From: a virus
Virus record (IMG/VR): IMGVR_UViG_3300009094_001034
Location: 1 to 64,000 of that record
Reading direction: 5' to 3' (one strand)
DNA length: 64,000 nucleotides
Position numbers and translations under genes: made by a program. Below, piece by piece: positions 50,230-61,421 of the stretch. The notes under the pieces were generated by a model that had not been told where the DNA came from, did not search any database, and saw only the letters and a list, made by a program, of their open reading frames with translations. Every line of letters begins with the position of its first letter. Position 1 is the stretch's first letter.

Positions 50230-51714
50230 TTAGGGTGTTGCGTCTGCGTTCGCCGCGACTCCCGCCTGCTCTTCCGCAAGACGCTTCTCCACTTCCATCG
50301 CGAGCGCGTCTTCGGATGGCGCGGCGTCGATCTCCTCCTCGATCGTATTCTTCGTCGCGTCGTCCAACTTCGGGAAGGCTTCTTCGACGACGCGCTTCTT
50401 CACGAGACGGTTTGCCGTGGGCGAGACATTCACCTGCAGGAGCGCCATGGCCTCGTCGAGCATGTCGGCGAGCGTGGCGACGTTGAAGTCGGTCGGGTAG
50501 GAAACGGTCACGGGGAGATCTTCGTCAGACTTCCCCTGCCACTTATAGAAGAGGCGGATGATCTTCTTCTCGCCGTCCTCAAGGTTCTTCGCGATCTTCG
50601 CGAACGTGCTGTTCGACTCATGGAACTCGTACGCGCGAGCGACGCCGGAGGCCTCGCCGCTGTTCTGCTTGCGGTCCTGCAGCTTCGCGAGTTCGATGAA
50701 CTCCCGCTTTGCGTCCTCGATCCGCTTCATGAGGACTTCGGCTGGATCGGACGGGGGCGTGATGTAGGACGGCGGGTTCGTGCCGGCCGGGTAGCGGATG
50801 CCCTTGCTGGTGCCGAGCGTCGTCGCGACGCGGGTGGCCGAATCGGGCTTGCCCGGAACACCACTCTTCTCACCCACCGGGATTGCGAGGATGTTGAAGC
50901 CTTGGCGGTAGAGCGCCTCGTCGAGCACCGAGTGGTAGTTGTAGATGGCCTGGGCGAGTGGTGCCGTGTCCGAGATGACCGCCTGTCCGACGTCCATATG
51001 GCGCAGGTGTTCCTGGATCGGGGTGAAGACTGCGGGGACTTCTTTCAGGTCGTGCTTCCCGGCGTCGAGTTCGCGGCCCTCTGCGTCGTGGACGTACCAC
51101 TCGTCGCGCGTCCAGGTGCGATAGATCGACGACGCCTCTTTCCGCTCGCCGTCCCACGTCGACTCATCCGGCGCGTCTTCTTCGACGCGAAGCCATCGAT
51201 AGTTGCCATCGCCGTCGATCGCCCAGTCCTTCACTTCAAGCGGCGTGTAGACGCAGACGTACGGACGGATGCCGAGTTCCTTGTCATCGCGGCGAGTCTT
51301 CGAGTTCGTCGACTGTCGCGGCAGGTCGACGATGGAGACGGTGTGTCCCATCACCATCCCGAACTTGCCCACCTGATCCGACATCACCTGTGACAGGGGC
51401 GTTCCTTTCCGGTCGGCGTTCTTTTCGAAGTCGAGGAACTCCGGGTCCTTCGAGATACGCGCGATCTCGTCTTTGAAGATGAAGGCGGCGTAGATATCGA
51501 CCTGCTTCTTCACGAGGTTCAGATACGTCGCGCGGCGCAGACGCTCGGTGTAGTCGTCATCCGTTTCGCGCGGGTGACGGAACAGGTAGTCCTCTTTGCC
51601 GGCGAATGCCGAGCCGCCTTCGTAAGAGTCGGCGTAGAACTCCCAGTCGGACTCGAACTTCGCGTACGTGGGGTGCGTCAGCTTCAGGCGATCGGCGAGG
51701 CTCGTCTCGGGCAT
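50230..51714 (-). CDS. Portal protein
   Basis: HP.Y, YEGG, RE...Y..RL.RA.Y.N, SGVA; follows terminase. Confidence 0.85.
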   Translation of the reverse strand: MPETSLADRLKLTHPTYAKFESDWEFYADSYEGGSAFAGKEDYLFRHPRETDDDYTERLRRATYLNLVKKQVDIYAAFIFKDEIARISKDPEFLDFEKNADRKGTPLSQVMSDQVGKFGMVMGHTVSIVDLPRQSTNSKTRRDDKELGIRPYVCVYTPLEVKDWAIDGDGNYRWLRVEEDAPDESTWDGERKEASSIYRTWTRDEWYVHDAEGRELDAGKHDLKEVPAVFTPIQEHLRHMDVGQAVISDTAPLAQAIYNYHSVLDEALYRQGFNILAIPVGEKSGVPGKPDSATRVATTLGTSKGIRYPAGTNPPSYITPPSDPAEVLMKRIEDAKREFIELAKLQDRKQNSGEASGVARAYEFHESNSTFAKIAKNLEDGEKKIIRLFYKWQGKSDEDLPVTVSYPTDFNVATLADMLDEAMALLQVNVSPTANRLVKKRVVEEAFPKLDDATKNTIEEEIDAAPSEDALAMEVEKRLAEEQAGVAANADATP

Positions 51715-51771: not shown

Positions 51772-53310
51772 CTATCCGTTGAAGGAGAACGTTTCCATTT
51801 CTTGAACCTGCATCGTGTCTTCGATCACTTCGAGCAAGTAAGCCACGGCATCCGGCACGTCGTCGTGCTTCGCGAGAGGGAACTGCGTGAGCTCGTCGAC
51901 CGCCGCGGTCGACACGGTGTCGCAGATGCGAACGCGCCACTGCTCGAATTGCGGCTGCCAGCGGATCATCCGGCGCACCTTGTCCTTGTCCGGCCGGACG
52001 CCCACGGTGGGGACGTACGATGCGCCGCGCGCAGAAGCGTCGTCCACCATCTGCTTCAGCGCTTCTTGGTACGCGACGACCTCGATCCCTACGCGCGTGT
52101 AGTCCCACTTCTGGTGCTGCTCGAGCAGCAGGCGTACTTGCTGCGGCGCGAGGATGTGTTCGCGGATGACGTCCCAGATATAGATGGTGCCGTCTTCGGC
52201 CCAGCCGCCGGTGGCGAGGACGAAGTAGTCGGCGCCGTCCTTCTGCGAAATCGCGACGTCCGCCGCACCGAAACGAACGAGGTCTTCGAGCTTGATGGAG
52301 GCATCGCCATCCAGGATGAGGTTCGAGTCGCGAATGAACTTCGGCCGCTTGCGGTCCGCGCTCTCCACCCAGCTTCGCTTGATGACCGTGGAGCCTTCGG
52401 GGATGGGGTCGTTCTGGTATTCAGTCTGGAAGGCGAAGGACCCGATGGCCTTCTTCACCTTCATGAGCGCGACGTACGGGAAGCGGTCCGGCCAGAGCGT
52501 GGCCGTTCCCTCGTCCATCGCTGCGCGGTGCTTCGCGTAGAAGGCGTCGGCCGCCTCCTCGCCGCCTTGCGTCCAGGCGGCGTCCCACTGCTCCCAGAGG
52601 TCCGGGCGGTTCGGTTCCGAGAGGATCGCTTGGCGGTAGAAGACCCGGTACGCGCCCGTCTTCTTCTTCCGGAGGATCAGCGCGTCCTGGTGAAGCGTGG
52701 TGCCCACCATGAGGAGGCGCGAGTGCGCCGGGTCGCGCATCGGGATGACCGAGGCGTTGAACCATCGCTCGACCTTCTGGCGCTGGTGTTCGGTCTGAAC
52801 GGAGTCGTCATCCTCGACGTCATCGGTGATGACGAGTTGCGGACGCCACTGCTTGAAGCGCCAGCCGCGCGTCGAAGATCCGCGGCCGGCGGACCGGATA
52901 CAGACGTCGGTCGTGGTGATCAGCTTCTTCTCAGTCGTGTTCTTGAGGATGTCGCCGAAGACGGCGCGCAAGCGCTCGTTCTTCTCCATCTCCTCGTTGA
53001 TCGAGAAGAGGAGCGTCTTTGCCTGGTCGCCGGTCTCTGAGAACAGAACGATGAAGTGGTACTTCTGGAAGTAGACGCACCAGAGGACGTAGGCGAGCGA
53101 GATGACGGTGGACTTCGCGTGGCCTCGCGGAAGGATGAAGATGCCGTCTTCGGTGTGCTCGGTGAGTTCCGCAATCAGTTCCCGGTGGAAGTCGGGAATC
53201 TGCGCAGGGAAGTACGCGGCGAGGAAGTACTTGCAGAAGAACGCGAAGTTCCGCTCTGCCTTCCTCCGCGCCGCAGCGATGACGACCCGAGACTGCGGGG
53301 CAGTGGACGT
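51772..53310 (-). CDS. terL: Terminase large subunit (non-canonical start, see findings)
   Basis: Frame open from 53340; Walker A PRGHAKST upstream of first ATG; TDDVED, VGT, EYQNDP, HDDVPDA. Confidence 0.9.
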   Translation of the reverse strand, partial: TSTAPQSRVVIAAARRKAERNFAFFCKYFLAAYFPAQIPDFHRELIAELTEHTEDGIFILPRGHAKSTVISLAYVLWCVYFQKYHFIVLFSETGDQAKTLLFSINEEMEKNERLRAVFGDILKNTTEKKLITTTDVCIRSAGRGSSTRGWRFKQWRPQLVITDDVEDDDSVQTEHQRQKVERWFNASVIPMRDPAHSRLLMVGTTLHQDALILRKKKTGAYRVFYRQAILSEPNRPDLWEQWDAAWTQGGEEAADAFYAKHRAAMDEGTATLWPDRFPYVALMKVKKAIGSFAFQTEYQNDPIPEGSTVIKRSWVESADRKRPKFIRDSNLILDGDASIKLEDLVRFGAADVAISQKDGADYFVLATGGWAEDGTIYIWDVIREHILAPQQVRLLLEQHQKWDYTRVGIEVVAYQEALKQMVDDASARGASYVPTVGVRPDKDKVRRMIRWQPQFEQWRVRICDTVSTAAVDELTQFPLAKHDDVPDAVAYLLEVIEDTMQVQEMETFSFNG

Positions 53311-54050: not shown

Positions 54051-54080
54051 TTGCGCCCGCTAATCGTGCTTTGGTATAAC
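54051..54080 (+). promoter_or_regulatory. Putative promoter of the defence-like operon
   Basis: TTGCGC-18 bp-TATAAC with extended -10 TG. Confidence 0.5.
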
Positions 54081-54355
54081 CCCTCTTGCGCAGTTGCGCC
54101 TTTCTCCACGGGGCTTCAATAGCAGGTCCCAAAAGCGAGACGGGAACGATGAGCGAAACGAAAAGCACAGCTACACCCTCGTTGCTGCCGACCACTGTTC
54201 TGCGGGTCGGCTCTTTTTGTTTCTGCTCCCATGCCGACGAAGCGCGCCCTCCTCCTCGCCCATCTCAACTGCGTGACGACTCCGTTCGAACGACAACATG
54301 AAACCTAACCGGACTCCAACAGCGAGGACGGCAACAGAAAATTAGGAGAGACCCA

Positions 54356-56152
54356 ATGGCGAAGAAGAACGGCTCTACCTTCACGAGTGAAGACCTTCAG
54401 AGTCAGGACACCTACGTGGAGAAGTTGGAGCAACAGCATTTCTCGTATCCCCTCATCGCGGCCGAGTCGTTCGTCCGCGGCATGCGCGAGTCCGGCTACA
54501 AGTCGACCGCGACGGCACTGAACGAGTTGATCGACAACGCCATCCAGGCACAGGCCCGGAACGTCGACGTGATCCTCGGCTACAACGCCGGCAACAAGAC
54601 GAAGAAGAAGCCCGACATGCTGGCCGTCGTAGATGACGGCCACGGAATGCGGGAGAAGATGATCAAGGCCTCCGTCATGTGGGGCGGCACGCACCGCGAG
54701 AACGACCGTCACGGCTTCGGCCGGTTCGGGTTCGGACTCCCGAGCGCGTCCGTCTCGATCGCGCGCCGCTTTTCGGTGTACTCGAAGGCCCCTGGCGACA
54801 AGTGGTTCGTCATCGTCATCGACCTGGACGAAATCGCGTTGGGCCGCGCGACCGACGAGAAGGGCGTGGTGAAGGTGCCGGAAGCGGTACTGGCGGAACT
54901 GCCCGAGTTCGTGAAGCCCTACGCCTCCGGCCTGGAGCACGGGACCGTCATCCTGCTGGAGAAGTTGGACCGGCTGTCGAACGGATTCGTGACGTCGCAG
55001 GCATTCAAGCAGAACGAACTGCACCAGGTCGGCGTGACGTATCGCGAGATCCTGCGCGACGTGCAGGTCCGCGTCATCGACATCGGCGAGGAATTGGACA
55101 TCACGGCCGTCGAGCCGATCGATCCGTTGTTCCTCCGCCCGGACGCGCGGTACTACGACGAGACCGACGTCCACGCCGAGCCCCTGCCAGACTTGGCGTT
55201 CGAGGTGAAGCCGTCCGAGGAGTCGCCGTACGGCGGCGTCGTGCGTGTGCGGTACGCCTACATGCCCCCGGGGTTCCTGCCGGATGAGTCGAAGCGTTCC
55301 AGCCCCCGCCTCAAGGTCCGCAAGGAGAACACGGGCCTCATCATCATGCGCGCCGGCCGCCAGATCGACGTCGTGACGAACGGTCCGAAGTTCAGCGTCG
55401 ACTCCAACGACCGTCATTGGGCGTGCGAGGTGATCTTCGAGCCCACGCTGGACGAAGACTTCAGCGTGACCACGAACAAGCAGCAGATCGTGATCAAGGA
55501 CCGGATCTGGGAGGCGCTGCGGCAGAACGGCGTGTTCGACGCCATCCGCCAGATGCGCAATCGGTACGGGAAGGATCATGGCTACACCAAGGGGAAGAAG
55601 GCCGAGTCCGAGCCGAAGGTGTCCGAGGAGATCGCGACCGAGGCCGCCAAGTTCTTCGGCCGGAAGCCGACGAAGCCGAGCGTCGCGAAGGAGAAGAAGC
55701 TGAAAGAGGCGCTCGACCGCGAGGCGGTGAAGGTCGCCGAGCAGAAGGGCACGAGCCCGGAGGAAGCGAAGAAGGTGATCGAGGCCGAGACGGCTGAGAA
55801 ACCCTACAAGCTCTTCTTCGAGTCCGGCCGCGGAGAGTTCTACCGCGTCGAGCAGTTGGGCGGCCAGAAGCAGCTCTACATCAACACGTCCCACCGCTTC
55901 TACTCCGACGTCTACAACAACCCGCTGACGACGAACCGCATGCGCACCGCGCTGGAGTTGCTGCTGTTCACGATGGGCGCCTGTGAGCTCGAGTCTGAAG
56001 GCGACCGGGAGATGTTCTACACGAATGAGCGCGTCGAGTGGACGCGGCGGCTCGACACGTATCTGCAGTTGCTGGATCGTCGCGATCCGGTCGCCGATGC
56101 CCGAGCGGCCGAAACCACGCGCGCCGAGGCCGAAGACGAGTCGGCGGCGTAG
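54356..56152 (+). CDS. MORC-type GHKL ATPase (HATPase_c_3), paralog 1
   Basis: GY...ELIDNA, DDGHGM, GRFGFGL, GTVI; AGGAG SD. Confidence 0.88.
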   Translation: MAKKNGSTFTSEDLQSQDTYVEKLEQQHFSYPLIAAESFVRGMRESGYKSTATALNELIDNAIQAQARNVDVILGYNAGNKTKKKPDMLAVVDDGHGMREKMIKASVMWGGTHRENDRHGFGRFGFGLPSASVSIARRFSVYSKAPGDKWFVIVIDLDEIALGRATDEKGVVKVPEAVLAELPEFVKPYASGLEHGTVILLEKLDRLSNGFVTSQAFKQNELHQVGVTYREILRDVQVRVIDIGEELDITAVEPIDPLFLRPDARYYDETDVHAEPLPDLAFEVKPSEESPYGGVVRVRYAYMPPGFLPDESKRSSPRLKVRKENTGLIIMRAGRQIDVVTNGPKFSVDSNDRHWACEVIFEPTLDEDFSVTTNKQQIVIKDRIWEALRQNGVFDAIRQMRNRYGKDHGYTKGKKAESEPKVSEEIATEAAKFFGRKPTKPSVAKEKKLKEALDREAVKVAEQKGTSPEEAKKVIEAETAEKPYKLFFESGRGEFYRVEQLGGQKQLYINTSHRFYSDVYNNPLTTNRMRTALELLLFTMGACELESEGDREMFYTNERVEWTRRLDTYLQLLDRRDPVADARAAETTRAEAEDESAA

Positions 56153-56165
56153 CCGACAGGGACCA

Positions 56166-56200
56166 ACGGAAGGCCCGGGTTCTCCCCGGGCCTTTTCGTT
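56166..56200 (+). terminator. Internal hairpin/terminator between the two ATPase genes
   Basis: GGAAGGCCCGGG-TTCTC-CCCGGGCCTTTT. Confidence 0.6.
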
Positions 56201-56214
56201 CATGAGGAGAACGA

Positions 56215-57678
56215 TTGAAGAATGGAGAGATCATCGCGCTGGCGACCTTCATCGACGCCATCCGTGACGCCGGGTACCGGGGCACGCCCGCAGCGATCGC
56301 CGAGTTGGTGGACAACGCCATGGAGGCCGGAGCGACGAACATCACCATCGAACTCTGGACGACGGACGACGGAACGTCGGTGTACGTAGCCGATAACGGC
56401 TGCGGCATGCCGCCCGAGACGATCCGCCTCGCCCTGCAGTTCGGCGGCAGCACCCGCTTCGATTCCCGCGCGGGGCTCGGGCGGTACGGTATGGGGCTCC
56501 CAGGAAGTTCGATCAGTCAGGCATTGCGTGTCGACGTGTATTCGTGGACGACGCGCGGTGCGGCCTGGTGGACCTTTCTGGATGTCCCGATGATCCGCGG
56601 CGGCGCCCTCGTAGCCGTGCCGAAACCGCGGCGTGCCACGCCACCCGTGGGACCGCGAGAGACGACGAGCGGCACCATCGTCCAGTGGACACACTGCGAT
56701 CGCATCCCGAGCATCACCCCACGCCTCCTGCGGGAGATCCACGAGACCATCGGCCGGCTGTTTCGGACGTTCCTGTGGGCCGGAGCCACGATCACCGTGA
56801 ACGGCGTCGAGGTGCAGCCCGTTGATCCGCTTTTCCTGCGGCCGTCAGCGGCGCCGGTCGGAGCACGCCAGTACGGCCCGGAGTTGATCTTCCCCATCAC
56901 CCTCCGAGACGGGAACAGGAAGCGCCACGCCACCGTGACGGCGCAGTTCGTCGAACTGCCGATCGCGGAGTGGGAAGGGCTTTCGAATGCGGAGAAACGG
57001 AAGTATCGGATCTCCAAGTCTCCCGGCATCTCCATCCTCCGCGCCGACCGGGAGATCGACACCGGCTGGTTCTTCATGGGATCGAAGCGGAAGGAGAACT
57101 ACGACGATTGGTGGCGTGCGGAAGTGCGGTTCAGCCCCGAGCTCGACACGTTCTTCGGCGTGACGCACACGAAGCAAGGGATCCATCCGACCGCCGAGAT
57201 CGAGGCCATCTTGTCGCCGCAGATGGAGCGGATCGCACATGACCTGAACGCCCGCGTCCGGAAGACGTTTCTCCGCGTTCGGGCGACGGAGCCGAATACC
57301 CGCGCGATCGACTACGCCTCTGCTCGGGACCACCGGTTGGAGCCGCCGAAGCGTGCGGTTCGCCGCGGCGCAATGAAGGCGAAAACACGAGGATTGACCT
57401 ACTCCATCGAACACGCGAAACTCCCCGGCCCGCGGTTCTTCGCCGTGCGGATCTCAGACGGCCGGGTCAGAATCATCCTCAACGAGGATCACCCGTTCTA
57501 CACGGTCGTTTACGGGGACAATCGGAAGCGCGATGCGACACAGGATCGTCTCGCGCAGTTGGAAATGATGCTCCTTGCAGCAGCGCGCGCGGAAGTCCAG
57601 TGTGTGCGAAAAGAGAAGGTGGAGGCGAGGGCGTTTCTCCAACAGTGGAGCGATGCTCTCCGGACGTTTTTGACCTAG
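56215..57678 (+). CDS. MORC-type GHKL ATPase (HATPase_c_3), paralog 2
   Basis: GY...ELVDNA, DNGCGM, GRYGMGL, GTIV; TTG start with GAGGAG SD. Confidence 0.88.
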   Translation: MKNGEIIALATFIDAIRDAGYRGTPAAIAELVDNAMEAGATNITIELWTTDDGTSVYVADNGCGMPPETIRLALQFGGSTRFDSRAGLGRYGMGLPGSSISQALRVDVYSWTTRGAAWWTFLDVPMIRGGALVAVPKPRRATPPVGPRETTSGTIVQWTHCDRIPSITPRLLREIHETIGRLFRTFLWAGATITVNGVEVQPVDPLFLRPSAAPVGARQYGPELIFPITLRDGNRKRHATVTAQFVELPIAEWEGLSNAEKRKYRISKSPGISILRADREIDTGWFFMGSKRKENYDDWWRAEVRFSPELDTFFGVTHTKQGIHPTAEIEAILSPQMERIAHDLNARVRKTFLRVRATEPNTRAIDYASARDHRLEPPKRAVRRGAMKAKTRGLTYSIEHAKLPGPRFFAVRISDGRVRIILNEDHPFYTVVYGDNRKRDATQDRLAQLEMMLLAAARAEVQCVRKEKVEARAFLQQWSDALRTFLT

Positions 57679-59655
57679 ATGGCGGATGAACGAGAGTGGT
57701 TCCCTTTTCAGCCCGAGCTCGGGCAGCACGTCGAGGAGTTCACGACGTTCGCTACGCGCTTGGCTGAAGCCACAGACCTGAAACCGCTGCGACTCGAGGT
57801 GCTCCGGGAACTCGACCGGGCGAAGAACGGCGCGCTCCCGCTCCACATGGTCCAGAGCATTGCCCTCGACCTCGCCGATCAGGGCTGGGGATTCAGCGTC
57901 GATCGAGACGGGATCGCATGCTCCGCTCCATCTGTCGCGGATGAATGCTCGGCGAGCGCAAAGACACGCATCCGTCAGGGCCACGCTTTCGAGCGCTCCG
58001 CCCACCTGCGCGAACCCTCCGTCCAAGACTTCATTGCGGCGATGGAACAGCGAAGGCTCACGGCGAACGGCTGGCATTCGATCTACTCGCTCATGCGCGA
58101 TGGCCGGGAACTCGGCGCGAAGTTGGCTGCGGCCGCGACGCTTGAAGGCGCCGCGCGCGAGAAAGCGCTTGCAGCAGCGATTGATCCCTACATCCAGTTC
58201 GTTGATCCGGATGTCGTCGACGAGCACACGGGACTCCTCCTCACGGACATCTGGCGCTACTTCCGGATGACGTGGGTGAACATGCACAAGTCCGTTCCTG
58301 GCCGCACGATGATGATCCTCATCCGCGACCGAGCCGCGGCACAACATCCGGTCATCGGGATCGCGGCGCTCGCGAGCGCCGTGGCGCAGTTGGACCTGCG
58401 AGACTCGTGGATCGGATGGAATGCTGCGGCATTCCTCGACCACCTGGACAACGAAGGGAACGCAGCAGATGCGAAGTGGCTCCACGCATCCATCGACAAT
58501 CTCCTCGACGCGATCTACCTGAAGGATCTCCTCAAGGAGAAGATCATCAGCAAGGCGCTCATCGCGACGCCTACCGAGGACCTGATCCGAAACCTCCGGG
58601 ATGCGGCAGCGGAAGCGAAGAAGAAGCACCACCAGAACGCCGATGCCGCGGCGATGAAGCGCAAGGACGTCGCTTGGGAGGAGAAAGCGCTCCTGCCACT
58701 CTTTCGCGCGAAGCGCTGCGAAGCGCTGGCAAAACTCCTCGGTATCCGACTCGTGTTTCAGAAGGTCGGTTTCAGTACCGGCTCTAAGAAAGCGCTCGAC
58801 CTCGCACTCTCGCAGCCCTCAGCGCGGACGGCGATCGGCCAACTCGTGCGGGCAGTGAAGTCGGAGCACGTCGGTATCGACATGATGGACATTACAGTCT
58901 GCGGCGCGGTGGCGCCGTACAACCGCGTGCTCGGCGGGAAACTCGTGTGCACGCTCCTCACGAGCCCCGAAGTCGTGCAGGCGTACAAGCGACGGTACGA
59001 TGGCCAGGAAAGCATCATCGCGTCGTCCATCAAGGGCGCTCCGGTACGCCGAACGCCACGGCTCGTGCTGCTCTCCACGACGAGTCTCTATGGCCGCGGC
59101 TCAAGCCAGTACAACCGCGTGAAGATCCCGGCGGGCGTGGCGGGCGGAGCGGACGGGGATGTCGTCGAGTACCGACATCTCGGCCACAGTAAGGGCTTCG
59201 GGACCTTCCATTTCAGCGCCGAGACCGTGCGCGTCATCGATACTCTTCTCGCCAGACGCCAGGACGGAAAGCGGGTGAACTCCATCTTCGGAGAGGGCGT
59301 GAATCCGCGGATGCGGAAGATCCGCGAAGCGCTCGAATCCGTGCGGTTGCCGAGCGACGCCATCTTGAATCACGGCGTTCCGCGCGTTGTGTACGGCATC
59401 GCGCTCGCGTCGAATTTCCGCGACGTGCTCCTCGGTCGGCAAGACAAGCCGCGCTACGTGATCCCGCAAACGAAGCCTGCGGAGCGGTCGGCCCGGCTCG
59501 CGGCCTTCTGGCGAACGCGATGGCTATCCAATCGCATCAATGATCCTGCGGTGCTCTCGGACATTGCGGAGCACACGCTGTCGTACCCCGTGACGCATGG
59601 AGCTCGCGTCGTCGGTCCGCCTATTGAAGGAGATGAGAACGAGACCCTATGGTGA
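57679..59655 (+). CDS. DruA/DUF4338-like protein (extended, 658 aa)
   Basis: WRYFR.TW...PGR, RD.WIGW, CGAVAPYN.VLGGKLV, TTSLYG..SSQYNR, G.S.GFG.FH. Confidence 0.8.
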   Translation: MADEREWFPFQPELGQHVEEFTTFATRLAEATDLKPLRLEVLRELDRAKNGALPLHMVQSIALDLADQGWGFSVDRDGIACSAPSVADECSASAKTRIRQGHAFERSAHLREPSVQDFIAAMEQRRLTANGWHSIYSLMRDGRELGAKLAAAATLEGAAREKALAAAIDPYIQFVDPDVVDEHTGLLLTDIWRYFRMTWVNMHKSVPGRTMMILIRDRAAAQHPVIGIAALASAVAQLDLRDSWIGWNAAAFLDHLDNEGNAADAKWLHASIDNLLDAIYLKDLLKEKIISKALIATPTEDLIRNLRDAAAEAKKKHHQNADAAAMKRKDVAWEEKALLPLFRAKRCEALAKLLGIRLVFQKVGFSTGSKKALDLALSQPSARTAIGQLVRAVKSEHVGIDMMDITVCGAVAPYNRVLGGKLVCTLLTSPEVVQAYKRRYDGQESIIASSIKGAPVRRTPRLVLLSTTSLYGRGSSQYNRVKIPAGVAGGADGDVVEYRHLGHSKGFGTFHFSAETVRVIDTLLARRQDGKRVNSIFGEGVNPRMRKIREALESVRLPSDAILNHGVPRVVYGIALASNFRDVLLGRQDKPRYVIPQTKPAERSARLAAFWRTRWLSNRINDPAVLSDIAEHTLSYPVTHGARVVGPPIEGDENETLW

Positions 59656-60146
59656 ACGTCCTTGAAGATCTGTACCACGTGAGCGCGACGCCGCGTGAGT
59701 TGAGTTGGCAACCGTCCCTGAAATCGAAGACGTGGGATGACGCGACGAAAGAGGAGATCGAGACGGCCCTCGATGCGCAGCGCCCAGCGCAGGCTCCGTC
59801 GCGGCGCAAGAGCTACTTCGCGTTCCGAACGATCGACGAGTGCGTCTACTACGCCGACTCGGAGGGCATCGGGCCGGAACGCCACTTCTACGTGGTGAAA
59901 CTGACGGGAGCTGTACGGGCGCCAATCAAGATCATCGCGGTGCCCCCTGCATTGTTGCCGTACCGCGACGCGATCTACCGTCACTACTGGAACGCCGACG
60001 ACGGGTGGAAGGTCTACGAACTTTTTGGCGAGCAGATGATCGTGCGGGACGAATACAAGGGCACGATCCCTGACGCTGGCCATGTGCTTGCGAAGTTGGT
60101 TGATGACCGGAACCGCCTGATGCAACTGGCTGCAACGTGGCGATGA
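59649..60146 (+). CDS. DUF2441-like (ADP-ribosyltransferase-fold) protein
   Basis: YHV...RP..APSR...YFAF...YW...YE pattern. Confidence 0.55.
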   Translation: MVNVLEDLYHVSATPRELSWQPSLKSKTWDDATKEEIETALDAQRPAQAPSRRKSYFAFRTIDECVYYADSEGIGPERHFYVVKLTGAVRAPIKIIAVPPALLPYRDAIYRHYWNADDGWKVYELFGEQMIVRDEYKGTIPDAGHVLAKLVDDRNRLMQLAATWR

Positions 60147-60598
60147 CCGATGAAGTGCTGGAGGTGTTGCGTCAGGCGAAAGTGCTTGCGCAGCGCTATC
60201 GTGCGCTGACGGGAAAGCCGCTCGGGATCACCGGAGAGGTGGCCGAGTACGAAGCCGCTCGAATCCTGGGAGTGCGACTTACGCCGGCGCGGCAATCGGG
60301 ACACGACGCCGTCGAGATCGTTGATGGCCGCGAACGCACGCTCCAAATCAAGGGGCGATGCATCCTTCCGGGGGCGAAGAAGAGCCAACAGACGGGTTCC
60401 ATCGATATCGAGAAGGCGTGGGATGCGGTACTTCTCGTGCTCGTCGACGAAAGCTTCGACGCGTACATCATCTATGAAGCGGAGCGCGACGCCGTTCTGA
60501 AGGCGATCCTTGAACCGGGCTCGAAGGGGAGAAACGAGCGGTGGGCGCTGTCGGTGAGCAAGTTCAAGGGCATTGGACGCGAGCGCTGGAAGCGCTGA
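60143..60598 (+). CDS. PD-(D/E)XK-like nuclease (DUF6998-like)
   Basis: GEVAE...GHDA...QIKGR; ATGA coupling. Confidence 0.65.
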   Translation: MTDEVLEVLRQAKVLAQRYRALTGKPLGITGEVAEYEAARILGVRLTPARQSGHDAVEIVDGRERTLQIKGRCILPGAKKSQQTGSIDIEKAWDAVLLVLVDESFDAYIIYEAERDAVLKAILEPGSKGRNERWALSVSKFKGIGRERWKR

Positions 60599-60614
60599 CG
60601 GTTATTCTTCTGCC

Positions 60615-61421
60615 ATGAACGATGTGCCGCAGCCGACCGCGTACGAGGAACGTTTCATTGCGTTCGTGGATGTGTTGGGTTTCGGCGCGCTGGTGTCCGA
60701 GTCGGGAAAGCCAGGTGCGGATGCGGCGGGGACAATCAAGCGAATCTGTGATGCGATTCTGTGGTCGCGGGAAGAACTCGAAGATCTGTTGAGTGGTTCT
60801 TCCGATTTCGTCTTTACGCAGTTCTCAGACTCCTTCGTGATCAGCACGGAGGCGTCGAATGAGACCCAACGATTCGGCCTCAGCCAGTTTGCCTTCGCAG
60901 TGCGCGCGATCATCGATTGTTTCCTCGGGTCTGACTTGGTTCTGCGCGGTGGTGTTACGCGCGGTCCGCTGATTCATACGCGTGAACTTCTCTTCGGCCC
61001 TGCGATGAACCGCGCGTATGAGTTGGAGTCTCGCGTGGCGAATGTTCCTCGGATCATCTTCGACCCGGACATCCCTGCCGTCCGTGATGCGCTGATGACG
61101 GACTACATGCCGGACTACGTGGCGAGAGACACGGACGGGTTCTTTTACGTCGACTACTTCTCCCCTACGAAGAAGTTCTTTCTCGTTCCGAGCTGGCTGT
61201 ACTCCATTCAGCGAATCATCGAAGCAATGCCGGTATCGGCGGCGCTCGCGGCAAAACGCGAATGGATGGTTGCGAAGTTCAATGCGCGCCTCGAGGGTTT
61301 CTCATTCGAAGCGTTCAAGGCACGGCTCGATGACTACGTCGACGACACGGACGCGATCAACGCCGTCATCGAAGACTACGAGAAACTCCTTGAGCCGGCG
61401 CGGCGTCTGCGACGGTTGTAG
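60615..61421 (+). CDS. Class III nucleotidyl cyclase-like protein
   Basis: FVDVLGF, FSDS, LRGGVT.G, FGPAMN.AYELES, PRI. Confidence 0.7.
   Translation: MNDVPQPTAYEERFIAFVDVLGFGALVSESGKPGADAAGTIKRICDAILWSREELEDLLSGSSDFVFTQFSDSFVISTEASNETQRFGLSQFAFAVRAIIDCFLGSDLVLRGGVTRGPLIHTRELLFGPAMNRAYELESRVANVPRIIFDPDIPAVRDALMTDYMPDYVARDTDGFFYVDYFSPTKKFFLVPSWLYSIQRIIEAMPVSAALAAKREWMVAKFNARLEGFSFEAFKARLDDYVDDTDAINAVIEDYEKLLEPARRLRRL

What the first reader, a model, noticed from the sequence alone, without database searches (positions are those of the whole stretch)
54356..59655. Candidate new defence system: two paralogous MORC-type ATPases plus a DruA-like protein, with no DruE
Seen: two GHKL ATPases with colinear architecture (GY..EL.DNA, D.G.GM, GR.G.GL, P.DPLFL, R..R.ID, F.P.LD..F.VT..KQ, N..H.FY..VY, LE..L, terminal W), then a 658-aa DUF4338/DruA-like protein starting immediately after the second stop codon. 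Established: DruA belongs to type I Druantia, whose core is the large DruE helicase (absent here); prokaryotic MORC ATPases are linked to restriction-modification-type conflict systems; GHKL proteins dimerise. Inference: a MORC heterodimer working with a DruA-like (possibly GNAT-fold, DNA-modifying) subunit as a standalone phage-carried anti-phage system. I cannot confirm it is absent from current catalogues.
Basis: partly seen in the sequence, partly recalled or inferred. Interest (0 to 1): 0.85.

Follow-up and report, generated by a model that had tools for sequence, protein, structure and literature searches.

The report
Helicase-less Druantia relative: two MORC-like ATPases plus DruA
A prophage carries a real, recurring three-gene cassette (two MORC-like ATPases and a long DruA protein) that is a helicase-free offshoot of the type I Druantia anti-phage system, found in no paper or defence catalogue I could search and never tested, though this scan has met it before on other DNA.

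Summary
Window 54356-59655 encodes two colinear paralogous GHKL ATPases (598 and 487 aa) and a 658-aa full-length long DruA whose ATG abuts the second ATPase's stop.

In 80 species genomes holding a long DruA, the second ATPase (G2) lies directly upstream in 77. This G2-DruA pair is the conserved core. It has two alternative partners:
- DruB/C/D/E genes, that is type I Druantia with an uncatalogued sixth gene: 44 loci.
- An orthologue of the first ATPase (G1) with no Dru helicase: 22 loci.
- Both: 6 loci.

G1 and DruBCDE are anticorrelated (Fisher 6e-8; independent-pairs sign test p about 0.008). DruE1 was missing from 19 of 20 two-ATPase genomes and from this 97-kb provirus.

Both ATPases keep every catalytic motif and fold like MORC/SMCHD1/Hsp90. 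DruA has a GNAT fold; its best solved match is the DNA-modifying phage Mu Mom, a statistical tie with ordinary acetyltransferases.

No PADLOC model or paper describes the trio. This scan has reported the same helicase-less cassette in several other genomes, usually with a private sigma factor that is absent here.

Verdict: a new variant of a known kind, probably anti-phage. The mechanism is inferred, the heterodimer is untested, and the host's own Dru genes cannot be checked.

The parts
54100..54153 (+). Conserved 54-nt hairpin motif upstream of G1, inside a roughly 260-nt leader that is better conserved than the genes
   Evidence: About 90% identical to L093 over window about 54090-54215. The same motif lies upstream of G1 in L061 and L089. 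RNAalifold gives a 13-pair hairpin with one compensatory pair. A covariance model found only these four copies in 1.8 Mb of loci. No Rfam match. Function unknown.
54187..54222 (+). Terminator-like hairpin (GCCGACC / GGTCGGC) plus T-run in the leader, 130 nt before the G1 start
   Evidence: Read from the sequence. Conserved in L093. The fold of the whole leader is no better than shuffles (z -1.2).
54356..56152 (+). G1: MORC/Hsp90-like GHKL ATPase, 598 aa, the accessory paralogue
   Evidence: PF13589 E 5e-19. Nearest solved sequence is MORC2, E 2.7e-12. Model pLDDT 83 matches SMCHD1, MORC2/3/4 and Hsp90. Motif I E/D-x-x-D-N, DxGxG, GxxGxG, motif IV Thr and the transducer Lys-Gln are invariant in 28 orthologues. 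It carries a charged helical insert at about 411-480 that G2 lacks.
56170..56201 (+). GC-rich hairpin plus T-run between G1 and G2 (possible attenuator), followed by GAGGAG and the TTG start of G2
   Evidence: Sequence. Also listed by the terminator scan, which overall found no more sites than in shuffled sequence.
56215..57678 (+). G2: GHKL ATPase, 487 aa, the fixed partner of long DruA
   Evidence: PF13589 E 1e-19. An orthologue lies directly upstream of DruA in 77 of 80 genome loci. All GHKL motifs are invariant in 32 orthologues. Its distance matrix correlates with that of DruA at r 0.89.
57679..59655 (+). Long DruA (DUF4338), 658 aa: N-terminal helical region 1-165, then a GNAT-fold core 165-596 split by a helical insert at about 249-397
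   Evidence: PADLOC DruA1 E 3e-178 and Pfam PF14236. Model pLDDT 82. All 50 best VIA-align matches are GNAT enzymes, the best being phage Mu Mom at Z 10.1. At least 2810 relatives of similar length.
59649..60146 (+). d1: 165-aa protein whose start overlaps the DruA stop; part of the block shared with the closest relatives
   Evidence: 60% identical and syntenic in L092. No Pfam or PADLOC hit. The Atlas's nearest clusters carry DUF2441 in 13-20% of members, which is a lead only. Absent from the other 80 loci.
60137..60598 (+). d2: 153-aa methyl-directed restriction endonuclease-like protein, last gene of the shared block; probably a separate defence gene
   Evidence: PADLOC mREase_II PDLC03209 E 6e-51 over the whole model, and Pfam DUF6998. 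76% identical and syntenic in L092. The shared block ends at 60598.

Best explanation
The three genes are a functional cassette of a modular family related to type I Druantia.

Shown:
- The fixed core is G2 plus long DruA. They are adjacent and start/stop-coupled, and their sequence distances track each other, so they are co-inherited and may co-evolve.
- This core pairs either with DruB/C/D/E or with the ancient paralogue G1. The two partners tend to exclude each other.
- Here the G1 form travels as a 6.5-kb block (leader, G1, G2, DruA, d1, d2). It sits inside a prophage between the packaging genes and the repressor region, on the strand opposite to the structural genes.
- Both ATPases keep all catalytic residues.
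- DruA has a GNAT transferase fold.

Inferred:
- The cassette protects the lysogen against other phages.
- G2 and DruA act as one complex. An ATP-driven MORC-type clamp would bring DruA to DNA, and DruA would transfer an acyl or aminoacyl group, most likely as a self-mark on DNA as phage Mu Mom does on adenine N6.
- G1, a second MORC-type clamp, would take the place of the DruE helicase arm. It would bind and disable unmarked incoming DNA, or recruit a nuclease.
For: - Gene anatomy and families.
- G2 sits upstream of DruA in 77 of 80 loci.
- Neighbours identified as DruE1 (E 0, full length), DruD1 and DruB1.
- Class counts: 44 with DruBCDE, 22 with G1 only, 6 with both.
- DruE1 is absent from 19 of 20 G1-only genomes and present in 6 of 6 controls.
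- G1 and G2 labels need only 2 changes on the GHKL tree, so they are old paralogues.
- The two classes are interleaved on the DruA tree, with at least 13 switches.
- Anticorrelation of G1 and DruBCDE: Fisher 6e-8; independent-pairs sign test median p 0.008.
- Mantel r is 0.89 for G2-DruA and 0.40 for G1 with either.
- Catalytic motifs are invariant in both ATPases.
- MORC/SMCHD1/Hsp90 fold and GNAT fold with Mom as top hit.
- Genes next to DruA in G1-only loci belong to known defence systems: short pAgo with TIR-APAZ, ThsB, a QatA-like NTPase and, here, a methyl-directed REase.
- A 2024 preprint reports a new 'm6A' signal in E. coli carrying type I Druantia, although that system has no methylase domain (cited again).
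Against: - No experiment exists for this cassette or for any long-DruA system.
- Mom's lead over ordinary acetyltransferases is under one Z unit, so DNA as the substrate is only a lead.
- Foldseek found nothing significant for DruA in the PDB.
- GNAT toxins that acetylate charged tRNA would fit the fold equally well.
- G1 may act independently: there is a hairpin between the genes, its orientation varies, and its co-evolution with the core is weaker.
- Six loci carry both G1 and DruBCDE, so G1 is not a strict replacement.
- The host chromosome of this provirus could not be searched.
- Genes in the comparison loci were called by a longest-ORF heuristic. Many genomes are incomplete MAGs.
Confidence: 0.6

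Rival explanations
1. G1 is an independent single-gene defence or DNA-handling ATPase, in the manner of Tiamat or prokaryotic MORCs. It merely sits next to an orphan G2-DruA pair, so there is no three-part system.
For: Terminator-like hairpin and a separate RBS between G1 and G2. G1 is on the opposite strand, downstream, or several kb away in several loci. It often brings its own small sigma-like gene. Its distances correlate only weakly with the core, r 0.40.
Against: G1 presence goes against DruBCDE presence in phylogenetically independent pairs, which an unrelated neighbour would not show. G1 orthologues lie within a few kb of DruA in 28 loci from many phyla. G1, G2 and DruA move together as one block into the L092/L093 contexts. 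A sample of 401 genomes of one phylum gave no G1-level match outside the known locus.
Confidence: 0.15
2. The trio is the front end of an ordinary type I Druantia system and needs DruB-E, or another YprA-type helicase, encoded elsewhere in the host.
For: The same G2-DruA pair sits with DruBCDE in 44 of 80 loci, and six loci have both partners. One genome (L067) holds a split DruE1 about 5 Mb away. The host chromosome of this provirus is not held.
Against: DruE1 was not found in 19 of 20 two-ATPase genomes but was found full length in all 6 controls. It is not in the 97-kb record. A phage-borne cassette that depends on a host helicase would work in few hosts.
Confidence: 0.1
3. The cassette serves the phage rather than the host. 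DruA modifies the phage's own DNA, Mom-like, to escape host restriction, with the ATPases as helpers.
For: It lies in a prophage. The best structural match of DruA is Mom, an anti-restriction DNA modifier.
Against: The family is overwhelmingly chromosomal: 327 genome stretches against 3 other viral contigs out of 2.9 million. It is linked to the DruE defence helicase in most loci and to other defence genes in the rest. It sits on the strand opposite to the late genes, next to the repressor region, as lysogen-expressed cargo does.
Confidence: 0.1
4. The trio is a decaying remnant of a Druantia locus that lost DruB-E and has no function.
For: DruE is regarded as the core of all named Druantia types (abstract).
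Against: All three ORFs are intact with high GC3. Every catalytic motif is invariant across 28 and 32 orthologues. The helicase-less form is present in 22 species of several phyla and was reached by many independent switches. The 69-79% identical relatives L092/L093 keep all the genes intact.
Confidence: 0.05

Closest known systems
Type I Druantia (DruA-DruB-DruC-DruD-DruE; Doron et al. 2018, cited from my own knowledge; an example was seen on P. putida plasmid pKF715A)
   Same: It shares DruA (DUF4338). The window's DruA matches PADLOC's long DruA1 model end to end. Its orthologues sit with DruE1, DruD1 and DruB1 in most loci.
   Different: No DruB, C, D or E here. Two GHKL ATPases are present that are in neither the five-gene definition nor the pKF715A annotation, although there an IS66 element lies just upstream of DruA. 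The canonical DruA is short (409 aa) and aligns only to residues 400-591 at about 32% identity.
Long-DruA type I Druantia with an upstream GHKL gene (44 of the 80 loci here; found in no paper searched)
   Same: The same G2-DruA pair, orthologous and in the same order.
   Different: Those loci add a 977-aa protein with no PADLOC model (or DruB- and DruC-like genes), DruD1 and DruE1, and mostly lack G1.
Sigma factor + two MORC-like ATPases + long DruA cassette, reported earlier by this scan in other genomes (e1-3066687, e1-5278340, e1-2876396)
   Same: Two paralogous GHKL ATPases with long DruA and no helicase. I saw the same sigma-like gene beside G1 in several loci (Sigma70_r2).
   Different: No sigma-like gene here. 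G1 is instead preceded by a 260-nt conserved non-coding leader. The block carries two extra small genes and rides in a prophage.
Prokaryotic MORC and paraMORC ATPases of restriction-modification-like systems (Iyer, Abhiman and Aravind 2008, as summarised in the preprint read)
   Same: GHKL ATPase with a transducer domain. The nearest solved sequences and folds are MORC2/3/4 and SMCHD1. Conflict-system context.
   Different: Those are described next to helicases, nucleases and cytosine methylases. Here the partner is a GNAT-fold DruA and a second MORC-like paralogue, with no methylase and no helicase.
Mza system ATPase MzaB, and Tiamat (TmtA)
   Same: Weak N-terminal GHKL similarity: MzaB E 1e-14 to 1e-19; TmtA E 6e-4.
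   Different: The scores of 66-67 bits are far below the MzaB equivalog cut-off of 850. Only the ATP-binding domain aligns, and no other Mza genes are present.
Phage Mu Mom (GNAT-fold enzyme that uses Gly-tRNA to modify adenine N6 in dsDNA; PMC13219725)
   Same: GNAT fold with an inserted helical element. It is the best VIA-align match: Z 10.1, rmsd 3.9 over 174 residues.
   Different: 8% identity. The lead over ordinary acetyltransferases is under one Z unit. DruA is three times longer, and Foldseek finds no significant PDB match. Substrate and donor are unknown.

Membership tests
Type I Druantia | DruA (DUF4338) protein | tested here: met
   PF14236 E 1.5e-32, above the cut-off. PADLOC DruA1 PDLC00001 E 3e-178, full length.
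Type I Druantia | DruE helicase (DEAD helicase with MZB/DUF1998 zinc domain), regarded as the core of every Druantia type | tested here: not met
   No PF09369 and no PDLC00013 match in the 97-kb provirus record. The family is also missing from 19 of 20 genomes with the same two-ATPase arrangement, while 6 of 6 controls have it. The host chromosome of this provirus is not held.
Type I Druantia | DruB, DruC and DruD genes next to DruA | tested here: not met
   The genes after DruA hit no Dru model. No DruD1 in the record, though that model's control search rang nowhere. DruB and DruC models were not searched separately in the record.
GHKL ATPase superfamily, MORC-like branch | Bergerat-fold motifs I-IV and a transducer (S5-like) domain with the conserved Lys | tested here: met
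   The motif I acidic residue (Glu, or Asp in 3 of 28 G1 orthologues) and Asn, DxGxG, GxxGxG, Thr and Lys-Gln are otherwise invariant in 28 G1 and 32 G2 orthologues. Foldseek matches SMCHD1 and MORC2/3/4 with rmsd 6-9 A over 408-486 alignment columns, E 1e-13 to 1e-15.
GHKL ATPase superfamily, MORC-like branch | ATP-dependent dimerisation (here: a G1-G2 heterodimer) | not testable with these tools
Needs biochemistry.
Mza system (MzaB) | Full-length match to the MzaB equivalog model | tested here: not met
   67 and 66 bits against a cut-off of 850. Only profile positions 2-214 of 480 are matched.
GNAT acyltransferase superfamily (DruA core) | GNAT fold | tested here: met
   All 50 best VIA-align rows are GNAT enzymes, Z 8.1-10.1, spanning model residues about 165-596. 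This agrees with the GNAT call for DUF4338 in PMC10853773.
GNAT acyltransferase superfamily (DruA core) | Acyl-CoA or aminoacyl-tRNA donor site and catalytic residues | not tested
   The tools give no residue-level superposition. No donor was modelled.
Mom-type DNA adenine modifiers | Specific relationship to Mom beyond the shared GNAT fold | tested here: inconclusive
   Mom ranks first at Z 10.1, but the next GNAT scores 9.3. Identity is 8%. Mom does not appear among the Foldseek hits.

The most novel reading that the evidence does not exclude
This is a helicase-free and possibly nuclease-free restriction-modification-like immunity. DruA would be a Mom-like GNAT that writes an N6-adenine acyl or aminoacyl mark on self DNA; it would be the unidentified source of the 'm6A' signal reported for type I Druantia. 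The two MORC-like ATPases would read the mark and clamp or silence unmarked phage DNA, much as eukaryotic MORCs silence foreign DNA.
Probability: 0.12. Interest if true: 0.85.

Novelty: new variant of a known kind. Interest (0 to 1): 0.62.

Why it matters
Type I Druantia is one of the broadest-acting defence systems in E. coli phage panels, yet the roles of DruA to DruD are unknown.

The family studied here adds three things.
- Many type I loci have an unrecognised sixth gene, a MORC-like ATPase locked to DruA.
- This pair can do without the DruE helicase that is taken to define Druantia. It then pairs with a second MORC-like ATPase instead.
- DruA has a transferase fold whose best solved match modifies DNA adenines. 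That gives a concrete candidate for the unexplained DNA modification reported for type I Druantia.

The three-gene form is small (5.3 kb) and easy to clone and test. It would also give a bacterial model for MORC-type ATPases acting against foreign DNA.

Tried and rejected

Searches that gave nothing useful:
- Foldseek of the DruA model against the PDB gave nothing significant. A profile search of PDB sequences also gave nothing.
- Rfam has no match to the leader, and its fold energy is no better than shuffles. A covariance model of the 54-nt motif found no copies beyond the four it was built from.
- A G1 profile search of 401 genomes of one phylum found only G2-level matches outside the known locus. 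It therefore could not settle whether G1 ever occurs without DruA.

Ideas rejected:
- The genes after DruA as interchangeable effectors of the system. In other loci they are complete known systems in their own right (short pAgo with TIR-APAZ, ThsB, QatA-like). d3 lies outside the block shared with the nearest relatives.
- Mza or Tiamat membership. Only the ATP-binding domain aligns, far below the cut-off.

Literature searches for DruA or DUF4338 together with MORC, GHKL or HATPase found no description of the pair or the trio.


Full report
**What is there**

The window is the first 64 kb of a 97-kb IMG/VR provirus record. Minus-strand structural genes run up to about 53.7 kb. They include the portal (50230-51714) and the large terminase (51772-52989). 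At 61.5-64 kb lie HTH proteins and an S24-peptidase repressor-like gene.

Between them, on the plus strand, lie three ORFs:
- G1, 54356-56152, 598 aa.
- G2, 56215-57678, 487 aa. It starts at TTG behind a GAGGAG site.
- DruA, 57679-59655, 658 aa. Its ATG directly follows the stop of G2.

GC3 of 0.78-0.91 marks them as real genes.

Both ATPases are HATPase_c_3 proteins. Alignments of their orthologues match each other with probability 100%, E 1e-89, over 492 columns at 25% identity. The third protein matches PADLOC's long DruA1 model end to end, E 3e-178.

**Recurrence and context**

The long DruA family is large: at least 2810 proteins of similar length. I fetched 80 loci, each from a different species genome, with 10-kb flanks. 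I called ORFs with a longest-ORF heuristic and clustered them.

A G2 orthologue lies directly upstream of DruA in 77 of the 80 loci. The other recurrent neighbours are as follows:
- A protein of about 1850 aa that is DruE1 (PADLOC E 0, full length).
- DruD1.
- DruB1-like and weakly DruC1-like proteins.
- A 977-aa protein with no model.

Loci fall into these classes:

| Class | Content | Loci |
|---|---|---|
| A | one ATPase + DruA + DruBCDE-type genes | 44 |
| B | two ATPases (a G1 orthologue) + DruA, no Dru helicase genes within 10 kb | 22 |
| Mixed | both G1 and DruBCDE-type genes | 6 |
| Other | unclear or cut by contig ends | 8 |

The DruE1 model found nothing in 19 of 20 class-B genomes, and only a weak partial hit in the twentieth. 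It found full-length DruE1 in all six class-A or mixed controls. The provirus record itself has no DruE1, DruD1 or MZB domain.

**How the parts relate**

- On a tree of all GHKL proteins, the G1 and G2 labels need only two changes. The window's G1 sits in a fully supported clade of 20 G1 sequences. The paralogues are therefore old.
- On the DruA tree, classes A and B are interleaved, and well-supported branches force at least 13 switches.
- G1 presence and DruBCDE presence are negatively associated (Fisher 6e-8). Among phylogenetically independent pairs that differ in G1, DruBCDE goes the opposite way in about 8 and the same way in about 0. The sign-test median p is 0.008.
- The pairwise-distance matrices of G2 and DruA correlate at r 0.89. 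G1 correlates with either at r 0.40.

The picture is a tight G2-DruA unit that exchanges two alternative partner modules, DruBCDE or G1. In several class-B loci G1 comes with a small sigma-like gene (Sigma70_r2). There is none here.

**The local block**

Two metagenome contigs, L092 and L093, hold relatives that are 69, 79 and 74% identical for G1, G2 and DruA. They share with the window one continuous block, 54074-60598. The block holds:
- A non-coding leader of about 260 nt.
- G1, G2 and DruA.
- d1 (59649-60146).
- d2 (60137-60598).

Flanks differ on both sides, so the block moves as a unit, and d3 (60573-61421) is outside it.

d2 is a methyl-directed restriction endonuclease-like protein (PADLOC mREase_II, E 6e-51). 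d1 has only a DUF2441 lead.

In other class-B loci the gene after DruA belongs to a known independent system: short pAgo with TIR-APAZ, ThsB, or a QatA-like NTPase. I therefore read d1 and d2 as defence-island neighbours rather than effectors of the trio. That context is the main indirect evidence for a defence role.

Phage carriage is rare. Only three other viral contigs out of 2.9 million encode a relative. Two of them also carry DruE; the third is a distant relative in which no GHKL or DruE match was found.

**Proteins**

Both ATPases keep the motif I acidic residue and Asn, DxGxG, GxxGxG, the motif IV Thr and the transducer Lys-Gln. These are invariant in all 28 G1 and 32 G2 orthologues, except that three G1 sequences have Asp for Glu.

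The G1 model (pLDDT 83) matches SMCHD1, MORC2/3/4, Hsp90 and topoisomerase VI-B. The nearest solved sequence is MORC2. 'MORC-type' is therefore fair.

G1 has a conserved charged helical insert at about 411-480 that G2 lacks. Both share a C-terminal domain with invariant Asn, His, Arg and Trp, plus a Glu that is invariant in G1 and nearly so in G2.

The DruA model (pLDDT 82) has three parts:
- An N-terminal helical region with beta hairpins, residues 1-165.
- A core at 165-596 that aligns only with GNAT enzymes: all 50 best rows, Z 8.1-10.1.
- A helical insert at about 249-397 that splits this core.

The best row is phage Mu Mom, Z 10.1. This agrees with the GNAT call for DUF4338 in PMC10853773. 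Mom's lead is under one Z unit, so it is a lead and not a family assignment.

**Mechanism**

Shown:
- The gene anatomy.
- The modular partnership.
- Intact ATPase sites.
- The GNAT fold.
- The defence-gene neighbourhood.

Inferred:
- G2 and DruA act as a complex.
- DruA transfers an acyl or aminoacyl group, plausibly onto DNA as a self-mark.
- G1 stands in for the DruE arm by clamping or disabling unmarked DNA.

Two published observations make the DNA-marking idea testable. A 2024 preprint found a new 'm6A' signal in E. coli carrying type I Druantia, although the system has no methylase domain (cited). Mom is a GNAT that modifies adenine N6 in dsDNA using Gly-tRNA.

The weaker coupling of G1 argues that, if a heterodimer forms, it is not obligatory: class-A systems work with G2 alone.

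**Comparison with what is known**

The trio fails the type I Druantia membership test on DruE and DruB-D. Canonical DruA is short and has no annotated ATPase neighbour on plasmid pKF715A. The ATPases are not MzaB or Tiamat.

No paper I could search links DruA or DUF4338 with a GHKL or MORC ATPase.

This scan has reported the G2-long-DruA pair in at least 12 other genomes. It has reported the helicase-less two-ATPase form, with a sigma factor, in several. My independent analysis agrees with those notes. It adds the anticorrelation test, the co-evolution contrast, the sigma-less phage-borne form with its own conserved leader, and the Mom structural lead.

**Limits**

- The host genome is unavailable.
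- Many of the comparison genomes are MAGs.
- ORF calls in the loci are heuristic.
- Only the 80 best of 327 genome hits were examined.

Noticed in passing
window 54074-54355: The non-coding leader of G1 is about 90% identical to that of L093 over window about 54090-54215, more conserved than the genes it precedes. It holds a 54-nt hairpin motif (54100-54153), also found upstream of G1 in L061 and L089, then a terminator-like hairpin with a T-run (54187-54222). No Rfam match. It may be a small RNA or an attenuator.
   Followed up: partly
window 60137-60598: A 153-aa protein matches PADLOC's methyl-directed type II restriction enzyme model over its whole length (E 6e-51; Pfam DUF6998). It is probably a modification-dependent nuclease acting as a separate defence gene in the same prophage cargo block.
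   Followed up: partly
window 59649-60146: A 165-aa protein whose start overlaps the DruA stop. It is conserved with the cassette only in the closest relatives. The Atlas's nearest clusters carry DUF2441 in a minority of members. Function unknown.
   Followed up: partly
window 60573-61421: A 282-aa protein matches phage family phrog_23933 (unknown function). It lies outside the block shared with L092/L093, so it is not part of the cassette.
   Followed up: partly
L012:12079-15009 and 35 other loci: In long-DruA type I Druantia loci, a 977-aa protein with no PADLOC or Pfam match stands where DruB and DruC would be. With the upstream GHKL gene, these loci hold two components missing from the catalogue models.
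   Followed up: partly
L020:12055-14972, L034, L036; L017:11982-12521: A complete short-pAgo system (TIR-APAZ plus pAgo) in three loci, and an orphan ThsB TIR protein in one, lie directly after DruA in helicase-less loci. This is a defence-island context.
   Followed up: yes
DruA model (window 57679-59655) against BFVD: Uncharacterised proteins of giant viruses (Faunusvirus, Yasminevirus) are the only significant structural matches among viral proteins (Foldseek E 2e-8 and 2e-6).
   Followed up: no
window 51772-52989 (-): The terminase large-subunit ORF, read from its first canonical start, matches only positions 361-713 of the 760-position PHROG profile. The N-terminal ATPase part must be encoded upstream, in a frame with no ordinary start codon.
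   Followed up: no
L067 genome (G021:C1:5691010-5696555): DruE1 is split into two adjacent ORFs of 1340 and 543 aa, about 5 Mb from the DruA locus of the same chromosome.
   Followed up: no
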